Of a stretch of DNA of 42,166 nucleotides, positions 852 to 39,302 are shown piece after piece. The notes beneath the pieces were generated by a model. It was given only the letters and a program-made list of their open reading frames with translations, was not told where the DNA came from and searched no databases. Numbering within the stretch: the stretch's first letter is position 1; each line of letters starts with the position of its first letter. Position numbers and translations under genes: made by a program. This DNA is from a virus: IMG/VR virus record IMGVR_UViG_2554235236_000002; one strand, written 5' to 3'.

Positions 852-879
852 TTAAGTTAAAATCGTCATTTTAAACAAA
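852..879. repeat. 28-bp 11-6-11 boundary site, copy 1
   Basis: TTAAGTTAAAA-TCGTCA-TTTTAAACAAA. Confidence 0.8.
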
Positions 880-920
880 TTAAAAGAAAATATGGCTTTA
901 TCGAGTGGGAGGAGGATTAT

Positions 921-1325
921 ATGGGTTTAGATGTGACACATGGCGCCTTCAGTGGAGCATACTCGGCGTTTAATAATCTTAGAAGGTTTTTATTAAGATC
1001 AATTGGAGGTAGTTGGCCACCTCATGATGATAAAAAATTAAAGGATGGCCATTGGTATTTTGGTGAGGGCTATTCCACAAAAACGCATAAGGGACTAACT
1101 GAGTTTTTCGGTCATTCAGATTGTGATGGTGAAATTAGTCCTGAAATGTGTAAAATTGTTGCGGATGAACTAGAAGCCATCTTGCCATATGTAGAAGAGT
1201 TAGCGAAAAAAGAAATGCCTCATGGTCATATATTACGTGATGGTGGATACATAGTGTGCACAAAACAGTTTATTGCTGGCTGCAGACTAGCACATGAATT
1301 AAATGAACCATTAGAGTTTAGATAA
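921..1325 (+). CDS. Hypothetical phage protein (134 aa)
   Basis: Strong RBS GGAGGAGG; ORF track. Confidence 0.85.
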   Translation: MGLDVTHGAFSGAYSAFNNLRRFLLRSIGGSWPPHDDKKLKDGHWYFGEGYSTKTHKGLTEFFGHSDCDGEISPEMCKIVADELEAILPYVEELAKKEMPHGHILRDGGYIVCTKQFIAGCRLAHELNEPLEFR

Positions 1326-1344
1326 AAGCATGTTTTTAACGAGA
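1317..1344. repeat. 28-bp boundary site, copy 2
   Basis: TTTAGATAAAA-GCATGT-TTTTAACGAGA; contains the upstream stop codon. Confidence 0.85.
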
Positions 1345-1357
1345 TGGGAGGTATTAT

Positions 1358-1873
1358 GTGGGAGATATCCAGTTTTTAAAAGAGTTGCAAGAAGAATTGA
1401 GAACGCAAGAAAACGACGGTCAAGCTGCATCACGATTTTGGACAGTCGGTGATTATGAATGGGTCGAAGCTCGGGAGGAGAACGCAGAGCGCTATTCTGT
1501 ATACCTGCCATATAATGCAGAATCATATGTTTTAGATGATTATCTGGAAGAAATAAAAAAAGATAGTGAGCTGTCTGAAGAATGCCTAACTGAGCTGAAA
1601 GAAATTGGGGAAGACTATGACGAAGCTATTGAGTGGATTCAAAAATACATAGATGAAGAAGCAGAGTTAATTCCAGAAAGAAAGGTTCACATTATACAAC
1701 CAAATACAATGTTTTTGACCAAAAAAGAAGCAAAGAGTCACATCAAATCGAATAAGCATCATTACACTTCAAAAGCTCATACTTATGCTATGACAGCTTG
1801 GAGAGCGCCTAAAGTGGAACGACTATTGAAGATATTAGAAACATTTGATTGGGATTCAATTAAGATCAAATAG
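1358..1873 (+). CDS. Hypothetical phage protein (171 aa)
   Basis: RBS GGGAGGT, GTG start; ORF track. Confidence 0.85.
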   Translation: MGDIQFLKELQEELRTQENDGQAASRFWTVGDYEWVEAREENAERYSVYLPYNAESYVLDDYLEEIKKDSELSEECLTELKEIGEDYDEAIEWIQKYIDEEAELIPERKVHIIQPNTMFLTKKEAKSHIKSNKHHYTSKAHTYAMTAWRAPKVERLLKILETFDWDSIKIK

Positions 1874-1887
1874 TTATTTTATTATGA
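1860..1887. repeat. 28-bp boundary site, copy 3
   Basis: TTAAGATCAAA-TAGTTA-TTTTATTATGA. Confidence 0.7.
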
Positions 1888-1899
1888 AGGAGGAATTGT

Positions 1900-2148
1900 G
1901 TGTTTATCATTCAAAACATCGAAACGGAATTCTATTTGAAACATAATGGGAGCGAGTCATTAGAACACCCCTATATCGAAGTGGCCTGTCCGGGAGATGC
2001 AGAAGCTTTCAGTTCATTGAAACACGCAAAATATGCAGTTACATGGTATTGCGATATGTTTAAAAAATGGAGAATTATCGATGTATACGAAGGTAAATCG
2101 TATGTGAAGAATAAAATTTTTGAATTTGTTTTAGAAGAAGCTATGTAA
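1900..2148 (+). CDS. Hypothetical phage protein (82 aa)
   Basis: RBS AAGGAGG. Confidence 0.8.
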   Translation: MFIIQNIETEFYLKHNGSESLEHPYIEVACPGDAEAFSSLKHAKYAVTWYCDMFKKWRIIDVYEGKSYVKNKIFEFVLEEAM

Positions 2149-2157
2149 CGGAGAGTA

Positions 2158-2970
2158 TTAATCTCTCCAGGAATTAAATGAGGGGATACGAAGTTTGCCA
2201 TTTTTAGTCTTAAAACGGTGCTTCACATTACATAATAAAGGCTTAATGAATACATAATCGTCATTTTCATATTCTATTTGTTTGATAGAGTGGAAGTATT
2301 TGCGTTCATCGAATGGCATAAATTCCATGAACCCGGCAGATAAACCGTCAGGGTAACTGAGAAGAAACTTGATATCTTCCTTAGTGTATCCAGTAATGAG
2401 CACGTCAGTGTACTGATAATTTATAACCTTGATCCAGTTTTCCGATCTCTTGTTGATCTCGTAAGGGGAGTTTGCTTTCTTAAGCACGATTCCTTCAAGG
2501 TTCTTTTCTTTAGTCATTTCAAAATAGGCTTTTCCTTTGCCTTGTACTCCTTCAATCACAAAGATATTTGGATGGTTAAGATTTAGTGATCTAAGGAATT
2601 CCTTGCGTTTAAAAAGTGGATTTGAAGCTATTGATATTTCATTTAATCTTATGACATCGAACACGCAATAAACAATTTGATGAGAAGATTTGCTTGATTG
2701 AAAACGTTCCATAACAGATTCAAAATCGGGCAACCCATCAGAATTGGTAACGATAATTTCCCCATCTAAGACTGTCCCTTCGGGAATATCAATATCATGC
2801 AGCTCAGGGAATTTATTGGTGACTTCATTATTATGGCGCGTGTAAAGCTTAATCTTGCCATCTTGATTAGAAAGAATGATCCGTATCCCATCAAATTTAA
2901 GCTCAGTAATATAGTTTTCATCATCAAATGGCTCTTTAGCTGAATCAAGCAGCATTGGAGCTATAAACAA
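2158..2970 (-). CDS. ligB: ATP-dependent DNA ligase
   Basis: Motifs ELKFDGIR, LDGEII, FDVI, EGIVLK; RBS GGAGGTGG before TTG at 2970. Confidence 0.92.
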   Translation of the reverse strand: MFIAPMLLDSAKEPFDDENYITELKFDGIRIILSNQDGKIKLYTRHNNEVTNKFPELHDIDIPEGTVLDGEIIVTNSDGLPDFESVMERFQSSKSSHQIVYCVFDVIRLNEISIASNPLFKRKEFLRSLNLNHPNIFVIEGVQGKGKAYFEMTKEKNLEGIVLKKANSPYEINKRSENWIKVINYQYTDVLITGYTKEDIKFLLSYPDGLSAGFMEFMPFDERKYFHSIKQIEYENDDYVFIKPLLCNVKHRFKTKNGKLRIPSFNSWRD

Positions 2971-3063
2971 AAAAACCACCTCCATTTAAACATCTTATCT
3001 AAGGAGAGATGTTATTTAAAGCAAAATGCTGATGGTACTTAATGGATTAAAAGGAGGGATGTA

Positions 3064-3288
3064 ATGCACCAAACAACAGTGCAGATTAAAGATGTGAAAG
3101 TATTGATTAGGGGGATCTGGACAAAGAAGAAATTCACTGAAATAGAACGCGGCCAGACATTTATGATTGAGGAAGATGGCTGCTTTAAAAAGTACATAGC
3201 AAGAACAGAGCCTTATTGGGATAAGGAATTTGAAGCTTATGTTGTTGATGTGATGGATAAAAACAAGTTGAGGAGAGGGATTAGATGA
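3064..3288 (+). CDS. Hypothetical phage protein (74 aa)
   Basis: RBS AAAGGAGG. Confidence 0.8.
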
Positions 3289-3428
3289 GCAAGCTTTCCA
3301 TATTAAAATTCAGTAGAGATATCGGGAAACCATTTAGTCAATTGGCGTTTGTAATTAATGAGTTGTCTTTTGATTATAAATCGAAAAGAGAGTTGCTGCA
3401 ACAAATTGAAAAAGTCCGGTTTAGTTAA
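3285..3428 (+). CDS. Small hypothetical protein (47 aa)
   Basis: Manual translation MSKLSILKF...KVRFS; ATGA overlap with upstream gene; stop lies in boundary site. Confidence 0.55.
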
Positions 3429-3447
3429 AACAGAAATTTTATATAAA
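3420..3447. repeat. 28-bp boundary site, copy 4
   Basis: TTTAGTTAAAA-CAGAAA-TTTTATATAAA. Confidence 0.85.
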
Positions 3448-3460
3448 TTAAAAGGAGATA

Positions 3461-4714
3461 ATGATGAATTATCAATTTGAAAAAAATAAGCTGTATGCTT
3501 ATCTAGGGGAAGACTTAGTGAAATCTTTAAAGAAATATGAAGTTATTATTGCTGGTGGAGCAATTACAAGCCTATTCAATAATAAAGAGATTAATGATAT
3601 TGACCTTTACTTTAGAAGTGACAAACTGGCCTGTGATTTTTTGAGTGAATATTGGCATGATGGTATTTATGTGGCATCTCTCACAAAGAAAGCAGCATTA
3701 TTTATAAAAGGTGAATTAAAAGTGCAAATGATCCATTTTAGATTTTTTACCGATCCAAAAGAGATCTTTAAAACGTTTGACTATACAGTTTGCATGGGTG
3801 TATTTGATTTTAAAACTGAGGAGTTCACCCTACATAACGATTTTTTAAAACACAATTCCCAGCGCGTGCTGAGATTTAATAGTGGCACAGCTTTTCCGAT
3901 TGTTTCGCTTATTAGAGTACAAAAATACATCGACAAAGGGTACACCATTTCTAAATCAGAATTAATCCGTGTAATTCTTGCTTGTATGAATTTGAATATT
4001 GATACATACGAAGAGCTTAAGGAACACATAGGAGGGATGTATGGAGTAAATTATGACAAGCTATTCGAAGAAGGAAATGATTCACCTTTCGATTTGCAAA
4101 AAGTTATTGATCAAATCGCAAATATCCACTTAAATGATGAGTATTTTAAAGAGCCTGTTTCATTAGAATTCAAAGATCTTGATGATATTTTAGATACTAT
4201 CAATAAGAGTCCAGTTAAAACAATCACAATAAATGATGATAAATATAGAATTGGACATGACGGATACTTGAATAATTCATGCGCAGCTCCAGTACAAGAG
4301 ATTAAGTTAGACACTGGAGACTTTTTTAAAAACGAACGGTTCTACAAATTTGTAAGAAAAAGAGGAGATGGAAGACTGACAAGCTTTTGGGACGAAGACT
4401 TTGAGTATGTGGTAGGAGAAATGGCTACGGCAAAAGGGGGCTTAACGTTATGGTCAGGAGAGGGCAAGTTATACTTCAATGAAAAGTCAGCAATTGATGA
4501 ATCGTCATATTATAACCGTGATGACAAAGTACTAATTGAAGTGTCAATTAAAGAAGAAGACTTCATTGAAGCTGAGTATGGGACTGTTGAAGCTAAGTCA
4601 TGTTTCGTATTAAGAGAGGTTCCACAGAAGGAATGGGAAACATATTTAGAGAATATCAATGACTCAACAATAAACGGCGAAGAAGATCAAGAAGCTGATG
4701 AAATTTTTATATAA
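3461..4714 (+). CDS. Nucleotidyltransferase-fold protein with extra C-terminal domain
   Basis: N-terminal IIAGGAI...DIDLYF matches the NTase hG[GS]...DhD signature. Confidence 0.65.
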   Translation: MMNYQFEKNKLYAYLGEDLVKSLKKYEVIIAGGAITSLFNNKEINDIDLYFRSDKLACDFLSEYWHDGIYVASLTKKAALFIKGELKVQMIHFRFFTDPKEIFKTFDYTVCMGVFDFKTEEFTLHNDFLKHNSQRVLRFNSGTAFPIVSLIRVQKYIDKGYTISKSELIRVILACMNLNIDTYEELKEHIGGMYGVNYDKLFEEGNDSPFDLQKVIDQIANIHLNDEYFKEPVSLEFKDLDDILDTINKSPVKTITINDDKYRIGHDGYLNNSCAAPVQEIKLDTGDFFKNERFYKFVRKRGDGRLTSFWDEDFEYVVGEMATAKGGLTLWSGEGKLYFNEKSAIDESSYYNRDDKVLIEVSIKEEDFIEAEYGTVEAKSCFVLREVPQKEWETYLENINDSTINGEEDQEADEIFI

Positions 4715-4733
4715 AAACGATATTTTATCCAGG
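4706..4733. repeat. 28-bp boundary site, copy 5
   Basis: TTTATATAAAA-ACGATA-TTTTATCCAGG; contains the upstream stop codon. Confidence 0.85.
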
Positions 4734-4755
4734 GAATAAGGAAAGGGGAAGAAAA

Positions 4756-5403
4756 ATGAGCAAGAGCAGCATTTATACAATTGATTCGAAGTTTAATGGA
4801 TTTGTAAAAAATGAATATAAAAACTCATGGTGGTTTAGCCCTGTGGTATGGGATGTTTTACTTGATAAATATATGCATGATGATATTCAAACACCATTTG
4901 GTTTTAAAAAAAGCATTATTGGATGGGATGGAGAGGAACTCAACAAGAAATTAAATCAACTCATGAACAGTTGTGATAATTTTTCAGATCGCATTTGTTG
5001 GGAAATCACTAATCAGCAAATATTTTTCACTAAAGATAAGGAGCAAATAGCAAAAGCTCTTAAAGATTTTGCTCAAATGAATAAAGAATTTCATAAAGAC
5101 TCTGAGGGCATTTCAGTTTTGACGTATGAACATATACTTGAGCGTTTTAATGAAATTGCAGACGATATATTAGCAATTAATGAAAAACATTATCCATATT
5201 TTGTGTTTAAAAACACAAGTGTTGATGACAATGTGGAATTTTGGTTTGAAAAATATGTTAAAGAAGCTGATGAGTATACAAGCAGAACTCTAAAGGAACT
5301 CAATGAGTATGTCACTGAATTTGTTAAGATTAAGGACAGCAAGATACAAGGGTTTATTAGCAATTTAGATTATTTTAATAAGAAACATGAAAAATTCGCA
5401 TAA
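4756..5403 (+). CDS. Hypothetical phage protein (215 aa)
   Basis: RBS AAAGGGG; ORF track. Confidence 0.85.
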   Translation: MSKSSIYTIDSKFNGFVKNEYKNSWWFSPVVWDVLLDKYMHDDIQTPFGFKKSIIGWDGEELNKKLNQLMNSCDNFSDRICWEITNQQIFFTKDKEQIAKALKDFAQMNKEFHKDSEGISVLTYEHILERFNEIADDILAINEKHYPYFVFKNTSVDDNVEFWFEKYVKEADEYTSRTLKELNEYVTEFVKIKDSKIQGFISNLDYFNKKHEKFA

Positions 5404-5422
5404 AAGTAATTTTTTATACAAA
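5395..5422. repeat. 28-bp boundary site, copy 6
   Basis: TTCGCATAAAA-GTAATT-TTTTATACAAA; contains the upstream stop codon. Confidence 0.85.
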
Positions 5423-5521
5423 TTAATAGTGAACAAATAAGGCGGGTTCAGAGGATGCTGCAGGCCGGATACAGGGAAAACAGATTGAACAATGGTTACA
5501 AGATGACGGGAGGTAAGGGGA

Positions 5522-6129: not shown

Positions 6130-6154
6130 AAAACCTTTAGGAGGCGGCGGAATA

Positions 6155-6725: not shown

Positions 6726-6753
6726 TCTGAATAAAAACAATCTTTTATCTGAA
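6726..6753. repeat. 28-bp boundary site, copy 7
   Basis: TCTGAATAAAA-ACAATC-TTTTATCTGAA. Confidence 0.8.
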
Positions 6754-9388: not shown

Positions 9389-9417
9389 TAGACAAACACA
9401 AATTAAAAGTATATAAT
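9389..9417 (+). promoter_or_regulatory. Conserved sigmaA-type phage promoter (SPBRE-like), copy 1
   Basis: TAGACA-AACACAAATTAAAAGTA(17)-TATAAT. Confidence 0.9.
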
Positions 9418-16735: not shown

Positions 16736-19700
16736 GTGATTGGATGTCATTGTCACACATGTAAAAGCAACATCAGGCTGCTGGATTCCACCAATTCAGT
16801 AAAAGGGTTGCTTGAAACAGCGCTAGAAATGAATTATAAAGGACTAGCTATAACAGATCATGAAGTTCTGTCAGCGCATCTGGAAGCAATTCAGACTGTC
16901 CGAAGCATGAAAAAAGAGGGGGAAATGCCTCAAGATTTTAAACTTATCCTTGGCAATGAAGCATATCTGGTTGATTCTTTAGAAGAAGTTAGAGACAGCT
17001 ACCAGCCTGGTAAAACAAAATTTCCTCACTTCTTAATGCTGGCTGTTGATGAAAAAGGACATGAACAGCTAAGGATTTTATCATCTAAAGCATGGGAAAA
17101 TTCTTTCTACACTGGAACTATGGAAAGAGTACCTACAGTGAAAAAAGACGTGGAAGATCTTCTCAAGAAAGATCCTGGCCACATTATTGCAACCACGGCA
17201 TGTCTAGGGTCGGAAGTGAATATTTACTTACAGAAGATCATGGAAGTTGAAAAGAACGATGGAGATCCTGAACTAATTAAAGAATACAAATTAAAAATAC
17301 ATCAGTTTATTACTTGGTGTATTGATGTATTTGGGAAAGATAAATTTTTTATTGAGTTGCAACCTGCTTTGAGTGAGGAGCAGATTTATTGTAATAAAAA
17401 GTTGGTTCAGATAGCTGATGGCTATGGCTTAAAAAGAATAGTAACCACTGATGCTCACTATTTAAGACCCGAAGACAGAGCAATACACCAAGCATTCTTG
17501 AATGCCAAAGACGGGGAAAGAGAAGTCGACTCATTTTATGAAGCTTGTTTTGTGCAAAATGTAGATGAGATCCATGAAAGAATGAATTATATCGATAAAG
17601 AGATTGTTGAAGAAGCAATTCAAAACACTCTTTTAATTGGTGAAATGATTGAAGATTATACGATTGAGCATGAGCCGATTATTCCTAAAATGGAACTGCC
17701 AAACTTCAAATTGAGGCATTTGTTTAAACCAGCCTACGATAAGTATGAATACATAAGAAAAATGTCGGAGTCAAAGGATGACCAAGACAGGTATTTATTA
17801 AAGCTTATTGAAGACGGGTTTGAAAATAAACTTCTAAAAAACGATCTAACAAGAGATGAATTTCATAAAATTCTAACTAGAATTAATGTTGAATTGGGTG
17901 AGTTATGGGAGATCAGTCAAAAGCTAAATCAATCGATGGCATCTTACTATGTAACTGTAAGGGAAATCATTAATATTATTTGGGATGATGAATGTGGGGG
18001 AGACAGTTTAGTTGGAGCCGCAAGAGGAAGTGCAGCAGGATTCTTAATCAATTACTTGCTTGATAATACACAGATTAATCCAATGCAATACGACTTGCCG
18101 CATTGGAGACACATTCATAAATCAAGACCAGATTTGCCTGATATTGATATAGATACCGAGGGGACAAAAAGAGAAAAGATACTTAAAGCACTTCGCGAAA
18201 GATTTGGAGAAAAACGTGTTCTGCAGATAGCTACTTTTGGGACTGAAGGATCTAAATCTGCACTTCAAACTGCGTGCAGAGGATTGGGAATTGATAATGA
18301 CATATCACAATTTCTGAGTGAAATGATTCCATTTGAAAGGGGATCAAACTGGCCTCTCAAACACTGTTTTTATGGAGACGTGGAAACAGGTAGAAAGCCA
18401 ATTAAAGAATTCATTAGGGAAGTTGAGCGCTATCCCAATCTCAAAGAAACTGCTCTAAAAATCGAAGGGCTAACCAATAAACGCTCATCACATGCTGCTG
18501 GGGTAATTATTTTTAATGATAAGTATACAAAGTCTAATGCAATGATGAAGACTCCTAAAGGGGCATATATTACCCAATTCAATATGGGTGACAGTGAAGC
18601 AATGGGATCTGTAAAATTTGACCTTCTTACGATTGAAGCATTAGATAAGATCCGTGTAACTCTTGATCAATTGATCGAAAACGAAGAAATTCAATGGCAG
18701 GGCTCTTTAAAAGAGACGTATAACAAATATATTCATCCTGATGTGCTTGAGTATGAAGACGCAAGGTTATGGGAAATGGCCGGGAATGGAGAAATAATGG
18801 ATTTGTTTCAGTTTTCAACGGAGGTCGGCCATCAAGCAGTAATAAAAGTTCAACCTAAAAATTTGCTTGAAGCTGCTGTTACAAATTCTTTAATGAGACT
18901 CATGTCAGATGGCGAAGAGCAACCCGTAGACACTTATGTGAAATATAAAAACAATTTGTCACTGTGGTACGAGGAAATGCGTAAATACGGCCTAAGCGAT
19001 GATGCAATAAAGGTAGTTGAGAAGCATTTAAAAGACATCTATGGGGTTGCTGATACGCAAGAAGTTGTCATGCAAATGGTAATGGATAAAGAAATAGCAG
19101 GGTTCGATATTAAGGAATCAAACTATTTAAGAAAATCCATAGCTAAGAAAAAAGAGGACGTATTAAAAGAGGTTCAGAAATTATTCTTCAAAAAGGGGAA
19201 GGAAATTGGAGCGTCAGATAACCTTTTGAATTATGTATGGAATGTTCAATTTAAAAGACAGTTTGGTTATAGTTTTAGTTTACTTCATACTTTGGCATAT
19301 TCAATCATCGCTCTACAGGAATTGAACTTAAACTATCGATATAACCCTTTATACTGGAATACAGCCTGCCTAACTGTGAACAGCGGAGGAGTCGAAAATG
19401 AAGAAGAATCTGATGACCCAGACAAAAAGAAGAAGACACAAAAAACAGATTACGGTAAAGTTGCTTCAGCAATAGGGAATATACGCCGCCGTGGAATTAA
19501 AGTTGATTTACCTGATATCAACAAGGCCGGATTTGGCTTTAAAGCCGATATTGAAAATAGCTCAATTATTTTTGGCATGAAGGGGATGAACGGTATCGGC
19601 GACGAGGTTGTTCATCAAATTATCAGCAATAGACCTTATACTGATTTTGACGACTTTCTAGAGAGAATGTACCATAGCGGTATCATAAAGAAAGGACAGG

Positions 19701-20672: not shown

Positions 20673-21389
20673 GTGATGGAAATTTTCAAAAAACTGATAG
20701 ACTCAAACAAATTAAAAGTATATAATAAACGAAAAGAGTTGCAGATCTATTCTGTAATCTTTCTATTGGGGGTGGGATCAACATTAGGCTACAAGATGAT
20801 AGAGGAACATATCCAGCAGCAAAAGAAGGTTTCAATAAAAGAGCCATTTTATAAAAAACCAGACTTCATTCGTGAAGTGAAGTTAAAAAGGCAGCTGCTG
20901 CCTCATTTAGAGACTCGCCAAGAGATTATTGAAAAGGCACAAGATAAGTATTTACATATTAAAGTAGAAGAAGTTAAAAAAAATAAACCAAAAAGCAAAT
21001 TAAAAGAAAATACAAAGAGTAAAGTTTCTAAACCCAAGCAAAAGACTCAAAAGAGGCCTCACGAACAAAATCAAGTCATTAAAATGGAGGCCACGGCTTA
21101 TGTTCCATTTTGCGATACTGGCTGTATAGGGACAACTAAAACAGGCTATGACGTGTCAAATACAATTTACTATAAAGGGAAAAGAGTGATTGCAGTTGAT
21201 CCATCTGTAATTCCTCTGCACTCTTTAGTGAAGGTATCTTATAATAACGATTCGTTTGAGGCTTATGCTATAGATACAGGAGGTGATATTAAAGGAAATC
21301 GAATCGATCTTCTTGTTCAATCAGAATCAATCGCTAGAGATTTTGGTCGAAGAAATGTTGATGTGAGTATCATTACAAAAGGGAGCTGA
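20673..21389 (+). CDS. yorM: 3D-domain cell-wall protein with N-terminal TM segment
   Basis: ATAY, IAVDPSVIPL, DTGGDIKGNRID. Confidence 0.88.
   Translation: MMEIFKKLIDSNKLKVYNKRKELQIYSVIFLLGVGSTLGYKMIEEHIQQQKKVSIKEPFYKKPDFIREVKLKRQLLPHLETRQEIIEKAQDKYLHIKVEEVKKNKPKSKLKENTKSKVSKPKQKTQKRPHEQNQVIKMEATAYVPFCDTGCIGTTKTGYDVSNTIYYKGKRVIAVDPSVIPLHSLVKVSYNNDSFEAYAIDTGGDIKGNRIDLLVQSESIARDFGRRNVDVSIITKGS
20698..20726 (+). promoter_or_regulatory. Conserved phage promoter, copy 2 (inside yorM 5' end)
   Basis: TAGACT-CAAACAAATTAAAAGTA(17)-TATAAT. Confidence 0.8.
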
Positions 21390-22968: not shown

Positions 22969-22996
22969 ACTGAATAAAATATCAATTTTAAACAGA
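22969..22996. repeat. 28-bp boundary site, copy 8
   Basis: ACTGAATAAAA-TATCAA-TTTTAAACAGA. Confidence 0.85.
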
Positions 22997-23403: not shown

Positions 23404-23432
23404 TAGACAAACACAAATTAAAAGTATATAAT
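23404..23432 (+). promoter_or_regulatory. Conserved phage promoter, copy 3
   Basis: TAGACA-AACACAAATTAAAAGTA-TATAAT, identical to copy 1. Confidence 0.9.
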
Positions 23433-23885: not shown

Positions 23886-24356
23886 ATGCAAACATTAGAT
23901 GCACCAATTTACGAAGTTAAACAGGAGAGCGACTGGTATAGGTCTGAGAAGAAACGAAAAGAAGACATTAACTCATTCTTTGATAAATTTGAAGAAAAGT
24001 ATGGAGTCAAAGAGGGTTTTTCGTTTTATCACTCTGAGTATTTCGGAGTCTACGAAGGAACAGAAGCGTATGACGTATTTAAAAACGACATTGTTAAAAA
24101 TCCAGTAGACGGATTCTATGCTTTCAAAAAACGATCTAAGTTCTTCAAAGAAATAAAAACTATGATTGAGCAAATTGAAGAAGTGAATCCATTTAGGTCT
24201 CATGATGAACTAGGGTTAAACAACATGACTGGTCGTCAATGGATAGATGACAGATGGTTCTTTGGAGTTAAAAGTGAAAAACTTGTTAAAGGAGGCAGTG
24301 TAGTTGCTATTGATTATAAAGATTATCTGAAAATTGTAATGGAGCATTTAGATTAA
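23886..24356 (+). CDS. Hypothetical phage protein (156 aa)
   Basis: RBS AAGGGAG. Confidence 0.85.
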   Translation: MQTLDAPIYEVKQESDWYRSEKKRKEDINSFFDKFEEKYGVKEGFSFYHSEYFGVYEGTEAYDVFKNDIVKNPVDGFYAFKKRSKFFKEIKTMIEQIEEVNPFRSHDELGLNNMTGRQWIDDRWFFGVKSEKLVKGGSVVAIDYKDYLKIVMEHLD

Positions 24357-24375
24357 AATTCAAATTTTATTGAGA
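24348..24375. repeat. 28-bp boundary site, copy 9
   Basis: TTAGATTAAAA-TTCAAA-TTTTATTGAGA; contains the upstream stop codon. Confidence 0.85.
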
Positions 24376-24389
24376 AGGGAAGAGGGAGT

Positions 24390-24515
24390 ATGAAAGATAA
24401 ATTAAAAATTGCTGTGCACCATATTGAAGTAAATAGAGAGACAATGAGTGATAAGGCAGCACTTGACTTGTTCATTAAAGCAATCAAGAAAATCATAGCA
24501 GAAGCGGATGTTTGA
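24390..24515 (+). CDS. Small hypothetical protein (41 aa)
   Basis: Manual translation MKDKLKIAVHH...EADV; RBS GAGGGAG. Confidence 0.6.
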   Translation: MKDKLKIAVHHIEVNRETMSDKAALDLFIKAIKKIIAEADV

Positions 24516-24534
24516 TTTTAAGGAGGTGAGATTT

Positions 24535-24897
24535 TTGAATTTATTCAGTAGAGGTAAAACAAGCACATTCATTAGCGGTAACGGTAAGGTCAATATTAAT
24601 GGGGTTACATATGAAGGAAATAGCATTACGATAACCAATAACGAAGTTCTTATTGATGGGAAGGCTGTAGAGAACTCTGTATCTGGAGTGGTTAAGATTA
24701 AAATTGAAGGCAATCCCGCAAAAGTTTATTCTGATGCTTCTGTTGAAGTAAAGGGTGATGTTTTAGGTGACGTTGATTCTGGAGGAAGTGTAAATTGCGG
24801 CAATGTTAAAGGGAAAGTAGATGCTGGGGGAAGTGTCCGTTGTGGAACTGTAGGCGGAAGTGTAGACGCGGGTGGCAGTGTAAGCATGAGAAGGTGA
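24535..24897 (+). CDS. Beta-solenoid repeat protein
   Basis: Three 15-aa GxVDxGGSVxCGxVx repeats; RBS AGGAGGTG before TTG at 24535. Confidence 0.75.
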   Translation: MNLFSRGKTSTFISGNGKVNINGVTYEGNSITITNNEVLIDGKAVENSVSGVVKIKIEGNPAKVYSDASVEVKGDVLGDVDSGGSVNCGNVKGKVDAGGSVRCGTVGGSVDAGGSVSMRR

Positions 24898-24911
24898 AAG
24901 GAGCTGAATAA

Positions 24912-25043
24912 ATGTCGAATGTGAATATAAAAGATTCTGCTACGATTATTTTTAAAAAGAGTCCATCTGGAGAAACAGTGGATGAAATAAAGGTGGTTAC
25001 TATGCCGTCGAAGATAGCTGGTCAAAAGTTTTATTTTAACTAA
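24912..25043 (+). CDS. Small hypothetical protein (43 aa)
   Basis: Manual translation MSNVNIKDS...KFYFN; RBS AAAGGAG. Confidence 0.55.
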   Translation: MSNVNIKDSATIIFKKSPSGETVDEIKVVTMPSKIAGQKFYFN

Positions 25044-25044
25044 A
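25017..25044. repeat. 28-bp boundary site, copy 10
   Basis: GCTGGTCAAAA-GTTTTA-TTTTAACTAAA. Confidence 0.65.
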
Positions 25045-25055
25045 AAACAAAAAGG

Positions 25056-25758: not shown

Positions 25759-25786
25759 TTTAAATAAAAGGATGATTTCAAACAGA
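25759..25786. repeat. 28-bp boundary site, copy 11
   Basis: TTTAAATAAAA-GGATGA-TTTCAAACAGA. Confidence 0.8.
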
Positions 25787-26594: not shown

Positions 26595-26801
26595 ATGAGT
26601 AACCATTTCAAATTTAAACTGTCAGAAAAAATACAATCAAATTCTGACGTCGACTTCAGTAGAGTTGTATTCGAGGCAAAAAGAAGGGGTAATGCTGACT
26701 TGTATGATGTGACTAACAACATGTATGACGAAGCTTTTATTTATACAAAGACGAATGTAGATCAATATATCGAAAATGGTGATTGGATTCTAATAATCTA
26801 A
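26595..26801 (+). CDS. Hypothetical phage protein (68 aa)
   Basis: RBS AAAGGAGG. Confidence 0.8.
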   Translation: MSNHFKFKLSEKIQSNSDVDFSRVVFEAKRRGNADLYDVTNNMYDEAFIYTKTNVDQYIENGDWILII

Positions 26802-26824
26802 ATAAAATCATAATATTATATACT
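26797..26824. repeat. 28-bp boundary site, copy 12 (degenerate)
   Basis: TCTAAATAAAA-TCATAA-TATTATATACT. Confidence 0.6.
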
Positions 26825-32243: not shown

Positions 32244-32494
32244 TGAAATTAATCAAATTAGAACAGCCTTCATGCACCCCTTGTCAATTAGTCTCTAATT
32301 ATCTAAAAGAAAAAGGGATTGAATTTGAGGCGATTGATGTTACTGTACGGCCAGAAGTAGCAGCAGAGTATGGAGTGATGGGAGTCCCCGTCACTATCCT
32401 ACTCGATGGAGAAGGTAAAGAAGTAAAACGCAGCAGCGGTTTTAAGCCAAATGAATTAGATGAATTAATTTTTAAAATCGAAAACTATAAATAA
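32240..32494 (+). CDS. yosR: Thioredoxin/NrdH-like redoxin
   Basis: CTPC active site, GVP motif. Confidence 0.88.
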
Positions 32495-32513
32495 TATGGT
32501 ATTTTTAATGAGA
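32486..32513. repeat. 28-bp boundary site, copy 13
   Basis: TATAAATAATA-TGGTAT-TTTTAATGAGA; contains the upstream stop codon. Confidence 0.65.
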
Positions 32514-33959: not shown

Positions 33960-33962
33960 ATT

Positions 33963-33994: not shown

Positions 33995-34004
33995 CTAATA
34001 TTAA

Positions 34005-34169: not shown

Positions 34170-34242
34170 GTCTAACGGAGCTCCTTTACTTATTTTTTAT
34201 AATTTTACCACATATAGGACAGAGATACCGATCTAATAAACA

Positions 34243-34270
34243 TCGCTATAAAAGAAGACTTTTATCGTAA
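34243..34270. repeat. 28-bp boundary site, copy 14
   Basis: TCGCTATAAAA-GAAGAC-TTTTATCGTAA. Confidence 0.75.
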
Positions 34271-34288
34271 TTGTTAAGGAGGTGCAAA

Positions 34289-34576: not shown

Positions 34577-34577
34577 G

Positions 34578-35429: not shown

Positions 35430-35445
35430 AGAATGTAAAAAACAA

Positions 35446-35474
35446 TAGACAAACACAAATTAAAAGTATATAAT
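35446..35474 (+). promoter_or_regulatory. Conserved phage promoter, copy 4
   Basis: TAGACA-AACACAAATTAAAAGTA-TATAAT, identical to copy 1. Confidence 0.9.
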
Positions 35475-35573
35475 CAGGATGAGGTCGTTGCTCACCCTTT
35501 TTCTGTAGGATACATGGCAAAGGAGATGTTTCATTTATAAAACAAATTAAAAGTATTTTGAGGTGGTGAGAAA

Positions 35574-35939
35574 TTGAGTTCTGAAGCGAGTGACTTACAT
35601 AAGATTGAGCTGGCAGCAAAAAAAGTTGAATTAGAAAAAGAAAGTGAAACTCTTCAAGGGAAAATACTCGAAAAGGAACGTGACATACTACAACTCGAAA
35701 CTGAACAGGATAAAGAACAGCTTGATTTATTGCTTGAAATGAGTGAAGTTCTTCAGCAAATTGAAAATAAGAAATGGGTTAGTGCAACAATAGCTTTTAA
35801 GATTATTAGAAGCAATCCAGGAAAATACTCTGATTTATTTGAAATGAAAGATGGTAAAGCCTACATAGTAAATAAAAGATTCAAAGAATTAGAGCACGAA
35901 TTTTTCATAATAAAAGGTGAACTGAATGAAATTAAATGA
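35574..35939 (+). CDS. Coiled-coil hypothetical protein
   Basis: RBS GAGGTGG. Confidence 0.8.
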   Translation: MSSEASDLHKIELAAKKVELEKESETLQGKILEKERDILQLETEQDKEQLDLLLEMSEVLQQIENKKWVSATIAFKIIRSNPGKYSDLFEMKDGKAYIVNKRFKELEHEFFIIKGELNEIK

Positions 35940-35963
35940 AATAAACAAATTAAAAATATTTAA

Positions 35964-36188
35964 TTGAGGATGCGAAGGATGACAGAGAAGAAAGATTACG
36001 AAAGAATGAAGAGCGAAATTGCAGACCTACGCTGTGCCGTTGCCGGATTGATTTGGGAAAACAAGCAGTTGAAGAACGCGTTAAAATTAATTGAATCGAA
36101 GTCAGAGCTTCCCGAAAAGCCAGTCGATTTAGTTCCGATTACTGAGCTGTTCGAAATAAATTTACACGCGAAGGAGGCACTAAAATGA
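35964..36188 (+). CDS. Hypothetical protein
   Basis: ORF track; start probably at a downstream ATG. Confidence 0.7.
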   Translation: MRMRRMTEKKDYERMKSEIADLRCAVAGLIWENKQLKNALKLIESKSELPEKPVDLVPITELFEINLHAKEALK

Positions 36189-37290
36189 GCGAAATTAAAA
36201 AGTATGTGCGGATTAAGAGGGCGTATAGTAAAGGTGTCTGGTATGCAAACCAGATCGGGAGCGTCTTTCCTTCACTGGGAACATGGGAGAATGCATATAA
36301 AGTCAATAGTCCAGACAGGGCGTTGTATATTCGTCAAGAAGACGCCGAACTTATCGTCACAGAAAAGCGTCCGGCCAAAGTTGGCGAGCGTGTGTTGATT
36401 ACGAATAAATACGGAACTTCCGGTGAGTACAAAAACGGGGATATTTTAACCGCAGACCTGTGTATAGGGTATGCAATCACGACGAAGGAAGTTGATCTGA
36501 CGTTTATTTTTCATAGTGAATACGAAGTCATCGTCAATAACGAAGTTAAAAACGAGGGGGCTGACGAAATGGAAAATAAACTACTAATCGAAAATGCTAA
36601 AACAGTTTTTGAAAAGAAGGGCGATAAATACTTCGGCTATAAATCTCGTCTAGGCGATATTGTTATAGGTGGAAATTATTCTTATGCATTCGTAGTTCAT
36701 TACGCAAAAACAAATGAGGATGTTGTTATTATTCCGGGCGATGTTAATGCAGTCACAACACCAGTTTGCACAACAGAAGAAGAACGTCTGTGGAAGCCAG
36801 AAAAGACCGCCGGGATGAAATCGTTGTGCAGGCGAAGGCGGATATCAATGCGTTAAAAAATTATAATTTCTACGAAGTGTCTGACGCTGATGATCTCTAT
36901 AATCCCTATATTTGTACTGCGGAGTTTATCGTAAACAACCAAAAACGAACTGTTGTAGTATTATTGCGTGGTGCTAATTCGAGTAAAGTCTACGCAAGAG
37001 GAATCGCCAAGACCGCACCGGACGACTGCTTCAACGAACATATCGGAAAGGCTATCGCTCTCCACCGCGCACTTGGACTCGAAGTACCTGACGAATATCT
37101 TAACGCACCGCAACCGACTGAGGTTCGTGTGGGGGATGTTGTGAAGCACACTGTCACTTCAGAAATTGCGACGGTTATTGAAGATGATAGTTGGTCACCG
37201 TTAACAGGCGCTTATGTTTATCAGAGGGATGTTGAATCATCGCGTCGATATGCCCGCATTATTGACGACAGCCGGACGGAGGCGATTTAG
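36185..37290 (+). pseudogene. Frameshifted multidomain phage protein
   Basis: ORFs 36185..36856 and 36766..37290 overlap; protein-like sequence switches frame near 36805-36812. Confidence 0.6.
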
Positions 37291-37333
37291 ATCAGTTTTT
37301 AGGAGCTGACATCTATCTACTGACACAATTGAT

Positions 37334-37361
37334 TCTGTATGAAATCTGTATTTTATTTAGA
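37334..37361. repeat. 28-bp boundary site, copy 15
   Basis: TCTGTATGAAA-TCTGTA-TTTTATTTAGA. Confidence 0.8.
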
Positions 37362-37375
37362 TTAAGACACAAAAA

Positions 37376-37398
37376 ATGAAGAGGGTTAACCTCTTCAT
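37376..37398 (-). terminator. Intrinsic terminator
   Basis: ATGAAGAGG-GTTAA-CCTCTTCAT with U-tract on the minus strand. Confidence 0.75.
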
Positions 37399-37592
37399 CA
37401 GGTAGTTTTCTTCTTAGGTTCCCAACTGCAGCCTAAAACTGAATTAATAGTCCCAGCTGTTAAGAATCCCAAAAAAACACCTAAGTAATGATTTATATTC
37501 ACACTAAACCATACACCAAGAGAAATAGCTGTGATTAGAATTTCAGAAATATTTTTAATAAATGGATGTGAATTGAAAAAATTTTTAAACAT
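37398..37592 (-). CDS. Small membrane protein
   Basis: Two hydrophobic segments; terminator directly downstream. Confidence 0.6.
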   Translation of the reverse strand: MFKNFFNSHPFIKNISEILITAISLGVWFSVNINHYLGVFLGFLTAGTINSVLGCSWEPKKKTT

Positions 37593-37860
37593 GTATTGCT
37601 CTCTTTCTGCTTTGATTTCTTAAATAGTGACTTTTTTAAACAAAGTATGTAAATAAAAAATTAGGAATCAAGCACAAGGCCAGAAATTAAAGAAGAATAC
37701 GATTATATTGACCAAACACTTATTTTTCTTTGTTTTGTGCTTATTTTGCCACAAGTTAATACACCTCTAGATGATATTTACATAGAAAATCATACCATTG
37801 AAAAATGTGATAGAGCAAGTGAGAGGGTTAAATGTAATGGCAGGGATTAGACAGGAGCAT

Positions 37861-37882
37861 AAAAAGAGGGGATTTACCCCTC
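37861..37882 (-). terminator. sspC terminator
   Basis: GAGGGG-N5-CCCCTC followed by TTTTT on the minus strand. Confidence 0.8.
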
Positions 37883-37883
37883 C

Positions 37884-38102
37884 TTAATGAAATTGACCGC
37901 CCATGTTCTGTTGAGCTAAGCGAACTAAACGTTTGGTGATTTCTCCACCAACTGAACCGTTTGCACGAGAAGTAGTCTCAGCACCTAATTGGACACCAAA
38001 CTCAGAAGCTATTTCAAGTTTCATTTGTTCAATAGCTGAAGCTGCTTGAGGAATTAATAACTCGTTATTGTTGTTTGATCTTGATCTACTTTGTTGAGCC
38101 AT
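37884..38102 (-). CDS. sspC: Small acid-soluble spore protein, alpha/beta type
   Basis: MAQQSRSRS...[10 protein letters not shown]...[16 protein letters not shown]; RBS AGGAGA. Confidence 0.96.
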
Positions 38103-38148
38103 CTTATTCATCTCCTAAAGTTTAATGAAAACAAGCTTGTTTGAATCA

Positions 38149-38177
38149 TATTATGGAGAGATTATTTTAATTTATAC
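38149..38177 (-). promoter_or_regulatory. SigG-type promoter of sspC
   Basis: Minus strand GTATA-N17-CATAATA. Confidence 0.7.
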
Positions 38178-38221
38178 ACGCCAAAGAAATAAATTTTTTC
38201 ATTAAGAAAGGTAGGGGACAA

Positions 38222-39049
38222 ATGAAAATTGATTATGTATCAGATCTCCATATCAATCATTGGATTCCTTGGAATGTAAATCAGATCAAGTGGGAGAAGC
38301 GAACAAGGGAAATTGTAAATAGGTTGATCTCAAACGGTAATGGGGAGGTATTGGTCATTGCTGGTGATTTTACTGAATGGAATCAACAAGCCATTTGGGT
38401 TTTAGATGAAGTAGCAAAACAGTACGAGAAGGTTTACTTCACATATGGAAATCATGATCTTTATTTACTCAGTAAAAGTCAAAAAAGAAAATACTCTGAT
38501 TCATTAGGCAGGGTGAATGATTTAGTCAAAAAGGCTGATGACATAAAGAATGTGACTCCGTTAATCAAGTCAATGGATACTTTCAAAGGGAAAGTCTTTG
38601 CAGGAGATGTTATGTGGTATTTACCAAAAGGGATTGAAGGATGGGATTTCTTCAAAGGAGTCTCTAATGACTCAAATTACATTAGCATTAATGGTTACAG
38701 TAAGGAAGATGGAGTAAGAGCAATGTGGAAAGGTTCGATGGATTGGTATGAAACGCTCGAAAAAACTCACATCGATGTGTTTGTTTCTCATGTCCCTCCT
38801 GTTCATAATCCTTTTTCTCCATTTGAACCTAATAGCTGTTATATGGTCGATGTGCCATTCATTAACGCTAAACATTGGATTTGTGGGCATGAACATTTGC
38901 AAACTGAGTTTAATCATGAGGGGACAAGCTTTCACATGAACTGTATTGGGTATCCATACGACTACGATAAGTATCCGAGTGTAAACGAGATACCAGGTAA
39001 TGAAGTAGATACCTATAAAACGTTTGAGATTAAAACCTTTGAGATTTAA
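38222..39049 (+). CDS. yotB: Calcineurin-like metallophosphoesterase
   Basis: SDLH, AGD, GNHD, SH, GHEH. Confidence 0.92.
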
Positions 39050-39073
39050 AATGAAACTCCAATTTTATACAGA
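39046..39073. repeat. 28-bp boundary site, copy 16
   Basis: TTAAAATGAAA-CTCCAA-TTTTATACAGA. Confidence 0.75.
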
Positions 39074-39087
39074 AGGGAAGGGGAGAC

Positions 39088-39279
39088 ATGGAAAATGAAG
39101 TTGTATTTTTTTGTAGAAAATGCAACCATCACTTGTTTGCTAAAAATCCTACGATAAACAAATTAAATATTATATCAGAAATGGATTGCCCTAATTGTGG
39201 AGAAGAGGGTTATCATAATTGGATTCTTTCGCATATAGGAGATTCAGAGAAAGAAAAGGAGAACTACAATTGGAAGTAG
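39088..39279 (+). CDS. yotC: Zinc-ribbon protein
   Basis: CRKC...CPNC; synteny. Confidence 0.7.
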   Translation: MENEVVFFCRKCNHHLFAKNPTINKLNIISEMDCPNCGEEGYHNWILSHIGDSEKEKENYNWK

Positions 39280-39302
39280 ATAAAATGTTGATTTCATTTA
39301 GA
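39275..39302. repeat. 28-bp boundary site, copy 17
   Basis: AGTAGATAAAA-TGTTGA-TTTCATTTAGA. Confidence 0.75.

What the first reader, a model, noticed from the sequence alone, without database searches (positions are those of the whole stretch)
852..39302. Candidate phage gene-cassette system: 17 symmetric 28-bp 11-6-11 sites at accessory gene boundaries
Seen: sites start at 852, 1317, 1860, 3420, 4706, 5395, 6726, 22969, 24348, 25017, 25759, 26797, 32486, 34243, 37334, 39046 and 39275. The consensus is TYTRNWTRAAA-N6-TTTYAWNYARA, and nine copies have a perfect TAAAA-N6-TTTTA core. The outer 6 bp of the two arms are also mutually symmetric (TYTnnW / WnnARA), which simple AT-richness would not produce. 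All 17 six-bp spacers differ. Sites usually overlap the upstream stop codon and sit just before the next RBS. I found none at gene boundaries of the core yorE-yorR module (9.4-22.5 kb). Established: two 11-bp arms around a 6-bp crossover region is the architecture of Xer/dif and pdif tyrosine-recombinase sites, and Tn916-type integrases tolerate non-matching 6-bp overlaps. Inference: these are recombination sites of an integron- or pdif-like system that inserts, excises or shuffles accessory genes in SPbeta-like phages. No recombinase is in the window; SPbeta-family tyrosine-recombinase-fold genes elsewhere in the phage (YopP, YomM, MrpR/YopR) or host RipX/CodV are candidates. An alternative is an operator for a dimeric repressor.
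Basis: partly seen in the sequence, partly recalled or inferred. Interest (0 to 1): 0.95.

Follow-up and report, generated by a model that had tools for sequence, protein, structure and literature searches.

The report
Barcoded gene-swap joints in SPbeta-like phage
A 28-base mirror-symmetric DNA site sits between the accessory genes of this SPbeta-like Bacillus prophage and its relatives. Related phages differ by gene gain, loss or swap right at these sites, an anti-defence gene (gad2) included, so the sites look like built-in joints for gene exchange, probably bound by a very conserved, unstudied recombinase-like phage protein (YomM).

Summary
All 17 sites are present, and a weight-matrix scan adds two (20830, 33122): 19 sites score at least 16 bits and the next best about 11. 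The two arms match one consensus (TYTRRATAAAA) independently, with no compensatory pairing and no stable RNA fold. This fits a dimeric protein site on duplex DNA, not a hairpin.

The site is not the SPBRE/SroF(MrpR) operator. It occurs about 36 times in SPbeta itself. It is enriched in SPbeta-like phages of Bacillus, Geobacillus, Psychrobacillus, Mammaliicoccus and Staphylococcus and in B. cereus phage PBC2, but not in a host chromosome.

Homology between related phages breaks inside the sites far more often than at other gene junctions. The core and its 6-bp centre persist while neighbouring genes are replaced. The window's nearest relative lacks two cassettes, a Gad2 anti-Gabija homologue among them, with the joint inside a site.

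The best candidate binder is YomM, a Xer/Cre-fold protein and the most conserved SPbeta/Geobacillus E3 protein. Its catalytic competence is uncertain (invariant Lys replaces the second Arg). Recombinase action is inferred, not shown. Earlier reports of this scan found the same element on other DNA.

The parts
852..879 (.). palindromic site, spacer tcgtca
   Evidence: 23.9 bits. Left flank differs from G001; spacer and right flank are shared.
1317..1344 (.). palindromic site, spacer gcatgt; TAA stop of gene 921-1325 at site positions 7-9
   Evidence: 26.6 bits. Homology to G001 ends at site position 21, and the outer right arm and downstream gene differ.
1358..1873 (+). cassette gene (171 aa, phrog_3205, unknown function) between sites 1317 and 1860
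   Evidence: G001 has unrelated DNA here, while both flanking spacers are kept.
1860..1887 (.). palindromic site, spacer tagtta (holds the TAG stop of gene 1358-1873)
   Evidence: 19.7 bits. Homology to G001 starts at site position 2.
3420..3447 (.). palindromic site, spacer cagaaa
   Evidence: 23.4 bits. Its left arm and spacer are joined in G001 to the right arm of site 5395.
3464..4714 (+). cassette gene: Gad2 (anti-Gabija) homologue, 416 aa
   Evidence: 66% identity over 399 aa to Gad2 of SPbetaL6. Absent from G001.
4706..4733 (.). palindromic site, spacer acgata
   Evidence: 24.6 bits. The same spacer follows yoqX in SPbeta (95123) and follows Gad2 in SPbetaL6.
4756..5403 (+). cassette gene (215 aa, unknown) in the slot that holds yoqY in SPbeta
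   Evidence: No homology to yoqY. Absent from G001.
5395..5422 (.). palindromic site, spacer gtaatt
   Evidence: 20.9 bits. SPbeta has the same spacer at 95557. Homology to G001 resumes at site position 17.
6726..6753 (.). palindromic site, spacer acaatc
   Evidence: 21.9 bits. Both flanks differ from G001, but the core GAATAAAA-acaatc-TTTTAT is kept.
   Evidence: 19.6 bits. SPbeta 111023 and G001 104339 have a site at the same place.
22969..22996 (.). palindromic site, spacer tatcaa
   Evidence: 23.2 bits.
24348..24375 (.). palindromic site, spacer ttcaaa; stop of the yosC-like gene at positions 7-9
   Evidence: 23.0 bits. The blastn block with SPbeta (89% identity) ends exactly at the site's last base, 24375.
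25017..25044 (.). palindromic site, spacer gtttta
   Evidence: 19.3 bits. SPbeta has the same spacer at 118464, after yosF.
25759..25786 (.). palindromic site, spacer ggatga
   Evidence: 24.6 bits. SPbeta has the same spacer at 118861, although the gene between the two sites is unrelated (225 aa against yosG). The G001 block ends at +31.
26797..26824 (.). palindromic site, spacer tcataa
   Evidence: 20.1 bits. A G001 block starts 35 nt upstream.
32486..32513 (.). palindromic site, spacer tggtat
   Evidence: 19.0 bits.
   Evidence: 17.4 bits.
34243..34270 (.). palindromic site, spacer gaagac
   Evidence: 16.5 bits.
37334..37361 (.). palindromic site, spacer tctgta
   Evidence: 25.0 bits.
39046..39073 (.). 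palindromic site, spacer ctccaa
   Evidence: 22.6 bits. The G001 block ends at site position 4.
39088..39279 (+). cassette gene (63 aa, yotC-like) between sites 39046 and 39275
   Evidence: G001 has unrelated DNA of similar length here, with both joints at position 4 of the flanking sites.
39275..39302 (.). palindromic site, spacer tgttga
   Evidence: 20.2 bits. SPbeta has the same spacer at 131385. SPbeta carries yotD-yotG after this site, and the window goes straight to a yotH-like gene.

Best explanation
The 28-bp sites are duplex-DNA binding sites for a two-fold symmetric phage protein, and they act as preferred joints where accessory genes are exchanged, gained or lost between related phages. 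Each site has two equivalent 11-bp arms (TYTRRATAAAA) around a 6-bp centre. The invariant inner arms plus the centre stay at a given genome position, like a barcode. The outer arm bases, the ribosome-binding site and the gene travel with whichever cassette sits next to the site. Matching centres would favour exchange between the same slot in two genomes and so keep gene order. Rarer events between sites with different centres delete or insert cassettes. The most likely binder, and possibly the catalyst, is the YomM-family Xer/Cre-type tyrosine-recombinase-fold protein encoded among the tail genes outside this window.

Shown here: the sites, their symmetry, their restriction to phage DNA, and breakpoints lying inside them. 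Inferred: protein binding, the identity of the protein, and that it catalyses the exchange.
For: Reality and symmetry:
- Scores are bimodal, and the core occurs 10 times against 0.54 expected.
- In 55 sites the outer arms show 154 Watson-Crick pairs against 160.9 +/- 6.7 when arms are permuted, and G-U pairs equal A-C mismatches.
- RNA folds reach 0 to -1.1 kcal/mol, no better than shuffles.

Phage-specific and family-wide:
- A Metabacillus host genome has 115 hits against 113 in the control, with about 36 of the listed hits clustered in the ~165-kb stretch of contig C2 that contains the YorL-like polymerase gene, read here as the prophage.
- Counts against control: G001 35/6, E3 30/7, Perkons 17/2, Mammaliicoccus phi127 37/3, PBC2 23/1.
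- It is the top 5-N-5 palindrome in each of these genomes.

Joints:
- 93 of 272 homology-block ends among SPbeta, phi3T, L1, L4 and L6 lie in site windows that cover 1.4% of the DNA.
- In SPbeta 15 of 25 site-bearing intergenic regions carry a breakpoint, against 13 of 87 others (odds ratio 8.5, p = 2e-5).
- When one flank is shared, identity runs through that arm, the centre and the opposite inner arm, then stops at about position 23-25 or 5-6.
- Window against G001: 9 of 29 block ends lie at sites. G001 has a hybrid site made of the left arm and centre of 3420 and the right arm of 5395. Site 6726 keeps its core although both flanks differ.
- The window and SPbeta share 5 exact centres (0.47 expected) in the same order, some between unrelated genes.

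Binder:
- YomM is 83% identical between SPbeta and E3, where the next most conserved protein is 61%. It is 53-88% identical in the strong-motif SPbeta-like phages and 32% in PBC2.
- The fold model (mean pLDDT 74.7, pTM 0.51) matches XerA, Cre and XerH over its whole length by Foldseek (probability 1.0, TM-score 0.37-0.50, rmsd 11-15 A).
- Arg, Lys, His, His and Tyr of the active site are invariant.
Against: - No binding or recombination has been shown for any protein.
- YomM and YopP have an invariant Lys where canonical tyrosine recombinases have the second catalytic Arg, so they may only bind DNA, as MrpR does.
- Gene-content profiling does not separate YomM from YopP or YopR. Lactococcus phage 949 has a 31%-identical YomM-like protein but no such motif. 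Phage c-st has a weak enrichment (3 times the k-mer expectation) without a clear YomM.
- Half or more of the mosaic breakpoints lie outside sites. The window-only test is modest (p = 0.009, or 0.05 under the strictest null).
- Aligners extend into the conserved inner arms, so the crossover point cannot be placed more finely than positions 6-23.
- Pairwise comparisons of five related phages are not independent events, and gene calls came from my own heuristic.
Confidence: 0.55

Rival explanations
1. The sites are docking sites for a phage DNA-binding dimer with a regulatory or architectural role, such as a roadblock or silencer inside long operons, or genome organisation. Recombination joints coincide with them only because recombinants that keep the sites survive, or because bound protein stalls replication forks.
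For: The symmetry and lack of covariation fit any dimeric binder. MrpR shows that this phage family has turned a recombinase fold into a pure DNA binder. YomM and YopP lack the second catalytic Arg. Some SPbeta sites lie next to promoters or terminators, for example just upstream of the aimR and yorE SPBRE promoters.
Against: In the window no site overlaps one of the four strong TAGACA-17-TATAAT promoters. A plain operator role does not explain why the otherwise free 6-bp centre is kept at a position while the genes on both sides are replaced, nor why joints fall within a few bases of the core.
Confidence: 0.25
2. The sites are conserved linker sequences in the sense of the Susskind-Botstein modular theory. 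General or phage-encoded homologous recombination (for example the Sak4-like YorG annealase) uses the roughly 18 bp of identity in allelic cores, with no dedicated site-specific enzyme.
For: Allelic sites share ATAAAA + centre + TTTTAT, about 18 bp, in otherwise unalignable DNA. Joints can lie on either side of the centre. The phage encodes its own recombination proteins.
Against: This does not explain why the outer arms, which travel with the cassettes, still keep the TYTRR consensus. It does not explain strict dyad symmetry or conservation across genera. Hybrid joints between sites with different centres share only 5-6 bp.
Confidence: 0.13
3. The sites act in RNA, as a hairpin that terminates or processes the transcript or tunes translation of the next gene.
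For: They lie between a stop codon and the next ribosome-binding site. The SPbeta record annotates two of them as stem-loops.
Against: Folds reach 0 to -1.1 kcal/mol, no better than shuffles. There is no compensatory change, and G-U pairs are as frequent as A-C mismatches. The sites have the same form on both strands and after convergent genes. The host genome shows no enrichment.
Confidence: 0.03
4. The sites are SPBRE boxes, the operators of the master repressor MrpR/YopR/SroF.
For: Both are repeated elements of SPbeta bound (SPBRE) or possibly bound (this site) by recombinase-fold proteins.
Against: SPBRE is ACAAAnAnAAAwAATATGTATA, found at exactly the ten ChAP-seq targets, and it is read by a monomer. 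The window has its own variant box at other coordinates.
Confidence: 0.01

Closest known systems
pdif sites and dif modules of Acinetobacter plasmids (XerC/XerD); Xer/dif in general
   Same: A 28-bp site with 11-bp arms around a 6-bp centre. Many copies in one replicon flank discrete accessory-gene modules that differ between relatives.
   Different: The two arms here are equivalent, which suggests a homodimer as in XerH/difH or XerA, not a XerC arm plus a XerD arm. The sequence is unrelated AT-rich DNA. The sites are phage-specific and not enriched in the host chromosome, so a phage protein rather than host Xer is expected. Every site has its own centre, kept by position.
Integron attC sites with IntI
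   Same: Promoter-less genes are each followed by an imperfect palindrome that often overlaps the gene's 3' end. Cassette content varies between relatives.
   Different: These sites are 28 bp, not 57-141 bp. There is no folded single-strand structure or arm covariation. There is no attI/Pc platform and no IntI. Sites are spread over the whole genome.
PeSL (promoter-early stem-loop) cassettes of T4-type phages (from my own knowledge: Arbiol et al. 2010)
   Same: Short repeated intergenic elements bound small accessory genes in the plastic regions of a phage genome and coincide with module shuffling.
   Different: PeSLs carry an early promoter and a real stem-loop and are thought to work by homologous recombination. 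These sites have neither a promoter nor a stable stem.
Heterospecific lox/FRT sites used for recombinase-mediated cassette exchange (engineered)
   Same: Identical arms with different spacers, so only like-spacer sites would pair. This would give in-register exchange of the DNA between two sites.
   Different: That system is man-made, and the activity here is only inferred. Natural hybrid joints between unlike centres also occur.
SPBRE / SroF (MrpR) operators of SPbeta
   Same: A repeated element of the same phage family recognised by a recombinase-fold protein.
   Different: SPBRE has a different sequence, is asymmetric, is bound by a monomer, sits at about 10 promoters, and varies between heteroimmune phages. 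The palindrome is invariant across the family.

Membership tests
Xer/dif-type (simple tyrosine-recombinase) core site | Two inverted recombinase-binding arms of about 11-13 bp around a 6-8 bp central region | tested here: met
   The 11-6-11 layout holds, and the mirrored base counts of 55 sites are nearly identical.
Xer/dif-type (simple tyrosine-recombinase) core site | A cognate tyrosine recombinase with the full catalytic set (R-K-H-R-H/W-Y) | tested here: inconclusive
   YomM has a full-length Xer/Cre fold with invariant R180, K211, H281, H309 and Y319, but invariant K284 at the second-Arg position. YopP shows the same substitution.
Xer/dif-type (simple tyrosine-recombinase) core site | Strand exchange at the edges of the central region, demonstrated biochemically or genetically | not testable with these tools
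   Comparative joints place the crossovers somewhere between positions 6 and 23 of the site.
pdif / dif modules | Distinct XerC and XerD arms recognised by the host XerC/XerD pair | tested here: not met
   The arms are equivalent. The motif is not enriched in a host chromosome outside the prophage.
Integron attC | A long imperfect palindrome that folds as a single strand (paired R/L boxes, extrahelical bases) | tested here: not met
   No arm covariation and no stable fold. The site is only 28 bp.
Integron attC | An IntI integrase with an attI site and Pc promoter next to the array | tested here: not met
   PF00589 finds only a weak YopP-like match in the complete relative G001. Sites are dispersed over more than 100 kb.
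SPBRE / SroF operator | The asymmetric 24-26 bp box ACAAAnAnAAAwAATATGTATA overlapping a sigma-A promoter | tested here: not met
   The sequence and the positions differ.
Intrinsic terminator / RNA stem-loop | A stable G+C-containing stem followed by a U tract | tested here: not met
   Folds reach at best -1.1 kcal/mol. None of the terminator-like hits coincides with a site.
ParB/KorB/Noc-type dispersed palindromic docking sites | A ParB-fold protein conserved together with the sites | tested here: inconclusive
   The only ParB-superfamily-like candidate, YopQ/SroE (Pfam DndB), is absent from PBC2, which has 23 sites against 1 in the control.

The most novel reading that the evidence does not exclude
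SPbeta-like phages and some other large Bacillota siphoviruses carry a natural cassette-exchange system. A conserved phage Xer/Cre-type protein (YomM family) pairs sites with matching 6-bp centres in two co-resident genomes and swaps the genes between them in register. This would shuffle anti-defence genes such as gad1 and gad2 through a phage population without scrambling gene order.
Probability: 0.3. Interest if true: 0.95.

Novelty: new variant of a known kind. Interest (0 to 1): 0.8.

Why it matters
SPbeta is a model phage, yet I found no description of this element in the papers I could search. The known repeated element, SPBRE, is a different sequence. The published 'dedicated anti-Gabija locus' of SPbeta-like phages (bioRxiv 10.1101/2023.05.01.538930) lies in a stretch bounded by these palindromes. 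In this window a gad2 homologue is a cassette that the nearest relative lacks, with the joint inside a site.

If the sites are real exchange joints, three things follow:
- They give a concrete, testable mechanism for phage mosaicism and for the turnover of anti-defence genes.
- They assign a role to a highly conserved orphan recombinase-like gene that also puzzles in strictly lytic phages.
- They offer a simple rule for finding accessory and anti-defence genes: look between the palindromes.

Tried and rejected
- The window's own genome is not held, so I used the nearest provirus record, G001.
- The paper on SroE/SroF binding sites (Cell Host Microbe 2023) is not held. I could not check whether SroE peaks match the palindromes. 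Lazarevic 1999 is also out of reach.
- PDB sequence searches with YomM, YopP and YopQ found nothing.
- Identity with SPBRE is rejected.
- An RNA hairpin is rejected.
- A host-wide signal is rejected.
- As a universal binder, YonN (HU-like) is absent from the Mammaliicoccus phage and gives only a marginal tblastn hit (E = 0.006, 57 aa) in the Staphylococcus SPbeta-like phage. YopQ/SroE is absent from PBC2.
I found only 3 times the k-mer expectation, no outer-arm consensus and no clear YomM, so I count c-st as doubtful.
- Exact spacers shared between distant genera (E3, Perkons, Mammaliicoccus, c-st) do not exceed chance. Barcode conservation is shown only within the Bacillus group.
- Lactococcus phage 949, Enterococcus phage nattely, Lactobacillus phage Ldl1 and Staphylococcus phage CF1, with YomM-like proteins at 24-31% identity, show no enrichment of this core.

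Full report
**1. What the window is.** It is the early and accessory arm of an SPbeta-like prophage. It contains a yorE-yorR replication block at 9.4-22.5 kb, nrd genes, thymidylate synthase and a yotB-like phosphoesterase. Only about 15% of it aligns to SPbeta by megablast. The window's own genome is not held. The nearest record, G001, is a 127-kb provirus that is 96-98% identical in shared blocks.

**2.
- The strict core TAAAA-N6-TTTTA occurs 10 times against 0.54 expected.
- A weight matrix separates 19 positions (at least 16 bits) from everything else (at most about 11 bits). This adds sites at 20830 and 33122.
- Eighteen of the 19 sites are intergenic or overlap only a gene's end. Twelve overlap the upstream stop codon.
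- In 7 window sites and 12 SPbeta sites the stop is the TAA at site positions 7-9, so the last two codons of many genes lie in the outer left arm.
- Where a co-directional gene follows closely, its start codon lies 12-29 nt after the site.

**3. What kind of element it is.** I pooled 55 sites from the window and SPbeta.
- The two arms have almost the same mirrored base composition: T-Y-T-R-R-A-T-A-A-A-A, then a weak T/G.
- Within single sites the outer arm bases do not pair better than when arms are swapped among sites (154 pairs against 160.9 +/- 6.7). G-U pairs are no more frequent than A-C mismatches.
- As RNA the sites fold at 0 to -1.1 kcal/mol, no better than shuffles.
- The symmetry therefore belongs to the consensus and not to the individual sequence. 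That is the mark of a dimeric protein reading duplex DNA, and it argues against a hairpin, terminator or attC-like folded site.

**4. It is not the known repeat of SPbeta.**
- SPBRE, the operator of MrpR/YopR/SroF, is ACAAAnAnAAAwAATATGTATA.
- I found it at yonP, yonT, yonX, aimR, yopM, yopV, yorE, yorM, yorZ and yosX. These are the ten ChAP-seq targets of PMC10516654.
- SroF reads its 24-26 bp box as a monomer (bioRxiv 10.1101/2025.11.27.690993).
- The window has its own version of that box, TAGACAAACACAAATTAAAAGTATATAAT. It occurs three times unchanged (9389, 23404, 35446), with a variant near 20697. None overlaps a palindrome.
- The repressor box has diverged between the two phages, and the palindrome has not.

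**5. Distribution.**
- SPbeta itself has 36 sites scoring at least 15 bits. They occur in the late, opposite-strand region too, and after terminators and convergent genes.
- In a Metabacillus genome with a related prophage, the core is no more frequent than its reversed control overall (115 against 113). About 36 of the listed hits cluster in the ~165-kb stretch of contig C2 that holds the YorL-like polymerase gene, which I read as the prophage. This points to a phage factor, not a host factor.
- The core is the most enriched 5-N-5 palindrome in G001, Geobacillus virus E3, Psychrobacillus phage Perkons, Mammaliicoccus phage phi127, Staphylococcus phage SPbeta-like and B. cereus phage PBC2.
- In PBC2 it again sits between a stop codon and a ribosome-binding site.
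- It is weak in Clostridium phage c-st.
- It is absent as an enriched motif from Lactococcus phage 949, Enterococcus phage nattely, Lactobacillus phage Ldl1 and Staphylococcus phage CF1.

I compared SPbeta with phi3T, SPbetaL1, L4 and L6, which are 95-97% identical mosaics.
- 93 of 272 distinct ends of homology blocks fall within -5 to +32 of a site start, a window covering 1.4% of the DNA.
- In SPbeta 15 of 25 site-bearing intergenic regions carry a breakpoint, against 13 of 87 others (odds ratio 8.5, p = 2e-5). In the other four phages the figures are 64-93% against 15-21%.
- The fine structure is more telling. When two phages share only the left flank, identity runs through the left arm, the centre and TTTTA, and stops at about position 23-25. 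When they share only the right flank, identity starts at about position 5-6.
- The same core with the same centre therefore appears beside different genes on either side.
- A few joints are hybrids of two different sites. For example, L1 22012 joins the arm and centre 'acgata' to the right arm of the yoqY/yoqZ site. That is what a deletion between two sites would leave.

I compared the window with G001.
- 9 of 29 block ends lie at sites (852, 1317, 1860, 3420, 5395, 25759, 26797, 39046, 39275). Fisher p is 0.009 over all intergenic regions and 0.05 under the strictest null.
- The gene 1358-1873 is replaced by unrelated DNA, while both flanking centres (gcatgt, tagtta) are kept.
- Gene 39088-39279 is replaced from position 4 of one site to position 4 of the next.
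- At 6726 both flanks differ, yet GAATAAAA-acaatc-TTTTAT is unchanged.
- G001's site at 86930 has the left arm and centre of window site 3420 and the right arm of window site 5395. The window therefore carries two extra cassettes between them.
- The first cassette (3464-4714) is 66% identical to Gad2, the anti-Gabija protein of SPbetaL6. The second (4756-5403) is an unknown 215-aa protein in the slot that holds yoqY in SPbeta.
[quoted passage not shown] In my alignments that locus is bounded by these palindromes.

**8. Barcodes.**
- The window and SPbeta share five exact centres (acgata, gtaatt, gtttta, ggatga, tgttga) against 0.47 expected, in the same order.
- For gtttta/ggatga and acgata/gtaatt, the genes between the two sites are unrelated in the two phages.
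- Sharing of centres beyond the Bacillus group does not exceed chance.

**9. Who binds.**
- Because the motif is invariant across genera, its reader should be unusually conserved. YomM (SPbeta 40301-41302) is 83% identical between SPbeta and E3, where the next most conserved protein is 61% and the polymerase is 23%.
- YomM is 88% identical in G001, 61% in Perkons, 53-56% in the staphylococcal-family phages and 32% in PBC2.
- The family is large and tightly conserved across Bacillales.
- Its predicted structure (mean pLDDT 74.7, pTM 0.51) matches XerA, Cre, XerH, Tn1549 Int and IntI over its full length by Foldseek (probability 1.0; TM-scores 0.31-0.50, rmsd 11-16 A). It is thus a simple two-domain recombinase fold with no arm-binding domain. 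That type of protein binds inverted 11-13 bp arms.
- R180, K211, H281, H309 and Y319 are invariant, but position 284 is an invariant Lys where the second catalytic Arg is expected. YopP has the same change.
- YopQ/SroE (Pfam DndB) is missing from PBC2. The HU-like YonN is missing from the Mammaliicoccus phage and has only a marginal hit (E = 0.006) in the Staphylococcus SPbeta-like phage. MrpR has its own, different box.
- Gene-content profiling alone cannot separate YomM from YopP. Phage 949 has a YomM-like protein at 31% identity without this motif. The assignment therefore remains an inference.

**10. Verdict.** The sites are real, specific to this phage group, and mark the places where related phages differ by whole genes. 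That they are protein-bound exchange joints with position-specific centres is the best reading (about 0.55). That a YomM-type protein catalyses the exchange is plausible but unproven (about 0.3). A purely regulatory or architectural site, and conserved linkers used by general recombination, remain open rivals.

**Previous reports in this scan.** Earlier reports of this scan described the same palindrome on other DNA, one of them next to this window. I reached the breakpoint and barcode results before reading those notes. They agree with most of the notes and disagree with the two that rejected a role in gene exchange.

**Caveats.**
- Gene calls are from my own heuristic.
- Block ends from megablast extend into the conserved inner arms.
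- The five-phage comparisons are not independent events.

Noticed in passing
window 3464-4714 (+): Encodes a 416-aa homologue of Gad2, the anti-Gabija protein of SPbetaL6/L7 (66% identity over 399 aa). The nearest relative G001 lacks it.
   Followed up: yes
window 4756-5403 (+): A 215-aa protein with no Pfam family and only a weak PHROG hit. It occupies the slot that holds yoqY in SPbeta and lies beside the anti-Gabija genes of other SPbeta-like phages, so it is a candidate anti-defence gene.
   Followed up: partly
window 9389-9417, 23404-23432, 35446-35474; variant near 20697-20725: Three identical copies of TAGACAAACACAAATTAAAAGTATATAAT, a near-consensus sigma-A promoter with a fixed spacer, plus one variant. 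They lie upstream of the yorE-like, yorM-like and two other genes. They look like this phage's own version of the SPBRE/SroF operator-promoter and differ from SPbeta's box, as expected for a different immunity type.
   Followed up: partly
SPbeta 40301-41302 (L002); G001 24054-25055 (L011:4054-5055, minus strand): YomM is the most conserved protein between SPbeta and Geobacillus virus E3. It has a Xer/Cre fold with an invariant Lys at the second-Arg position. Homologues at 24-34% identity sit next to the tape-measure or lysis genes of large, reportedly lytic siphoviruses (PBC2, Lactococcus 949, Enterococcus nattely, Staphylococcus CF1), where a recombinase has no obvious role.
   Followed up: partly
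window 19269-19273 against G001 101767-102782: G001 has about 1 kb inside the YorL-like DNA polymerase gene that the window lacks, possibly an intein or intron.
   Followed up: no
SPbeta 79874-81256 (yopQ / sroE): The second 'master repressor' SroE matches Pfam DndB (DNA-sulfur-modification-associated, E = 7e-16). The trio yopP-yopQ-yopR is syntenic in E3, Perkons and the Staphylococcus and Mammaliicoccus SPbeta-like phages.
   Followed up: partly
window 2158-2970 (-): An ATP-dependent DNA ligase-like gene (yoqV/LigB type) on the opposite strand within the accessory arm.
   Followed up: no
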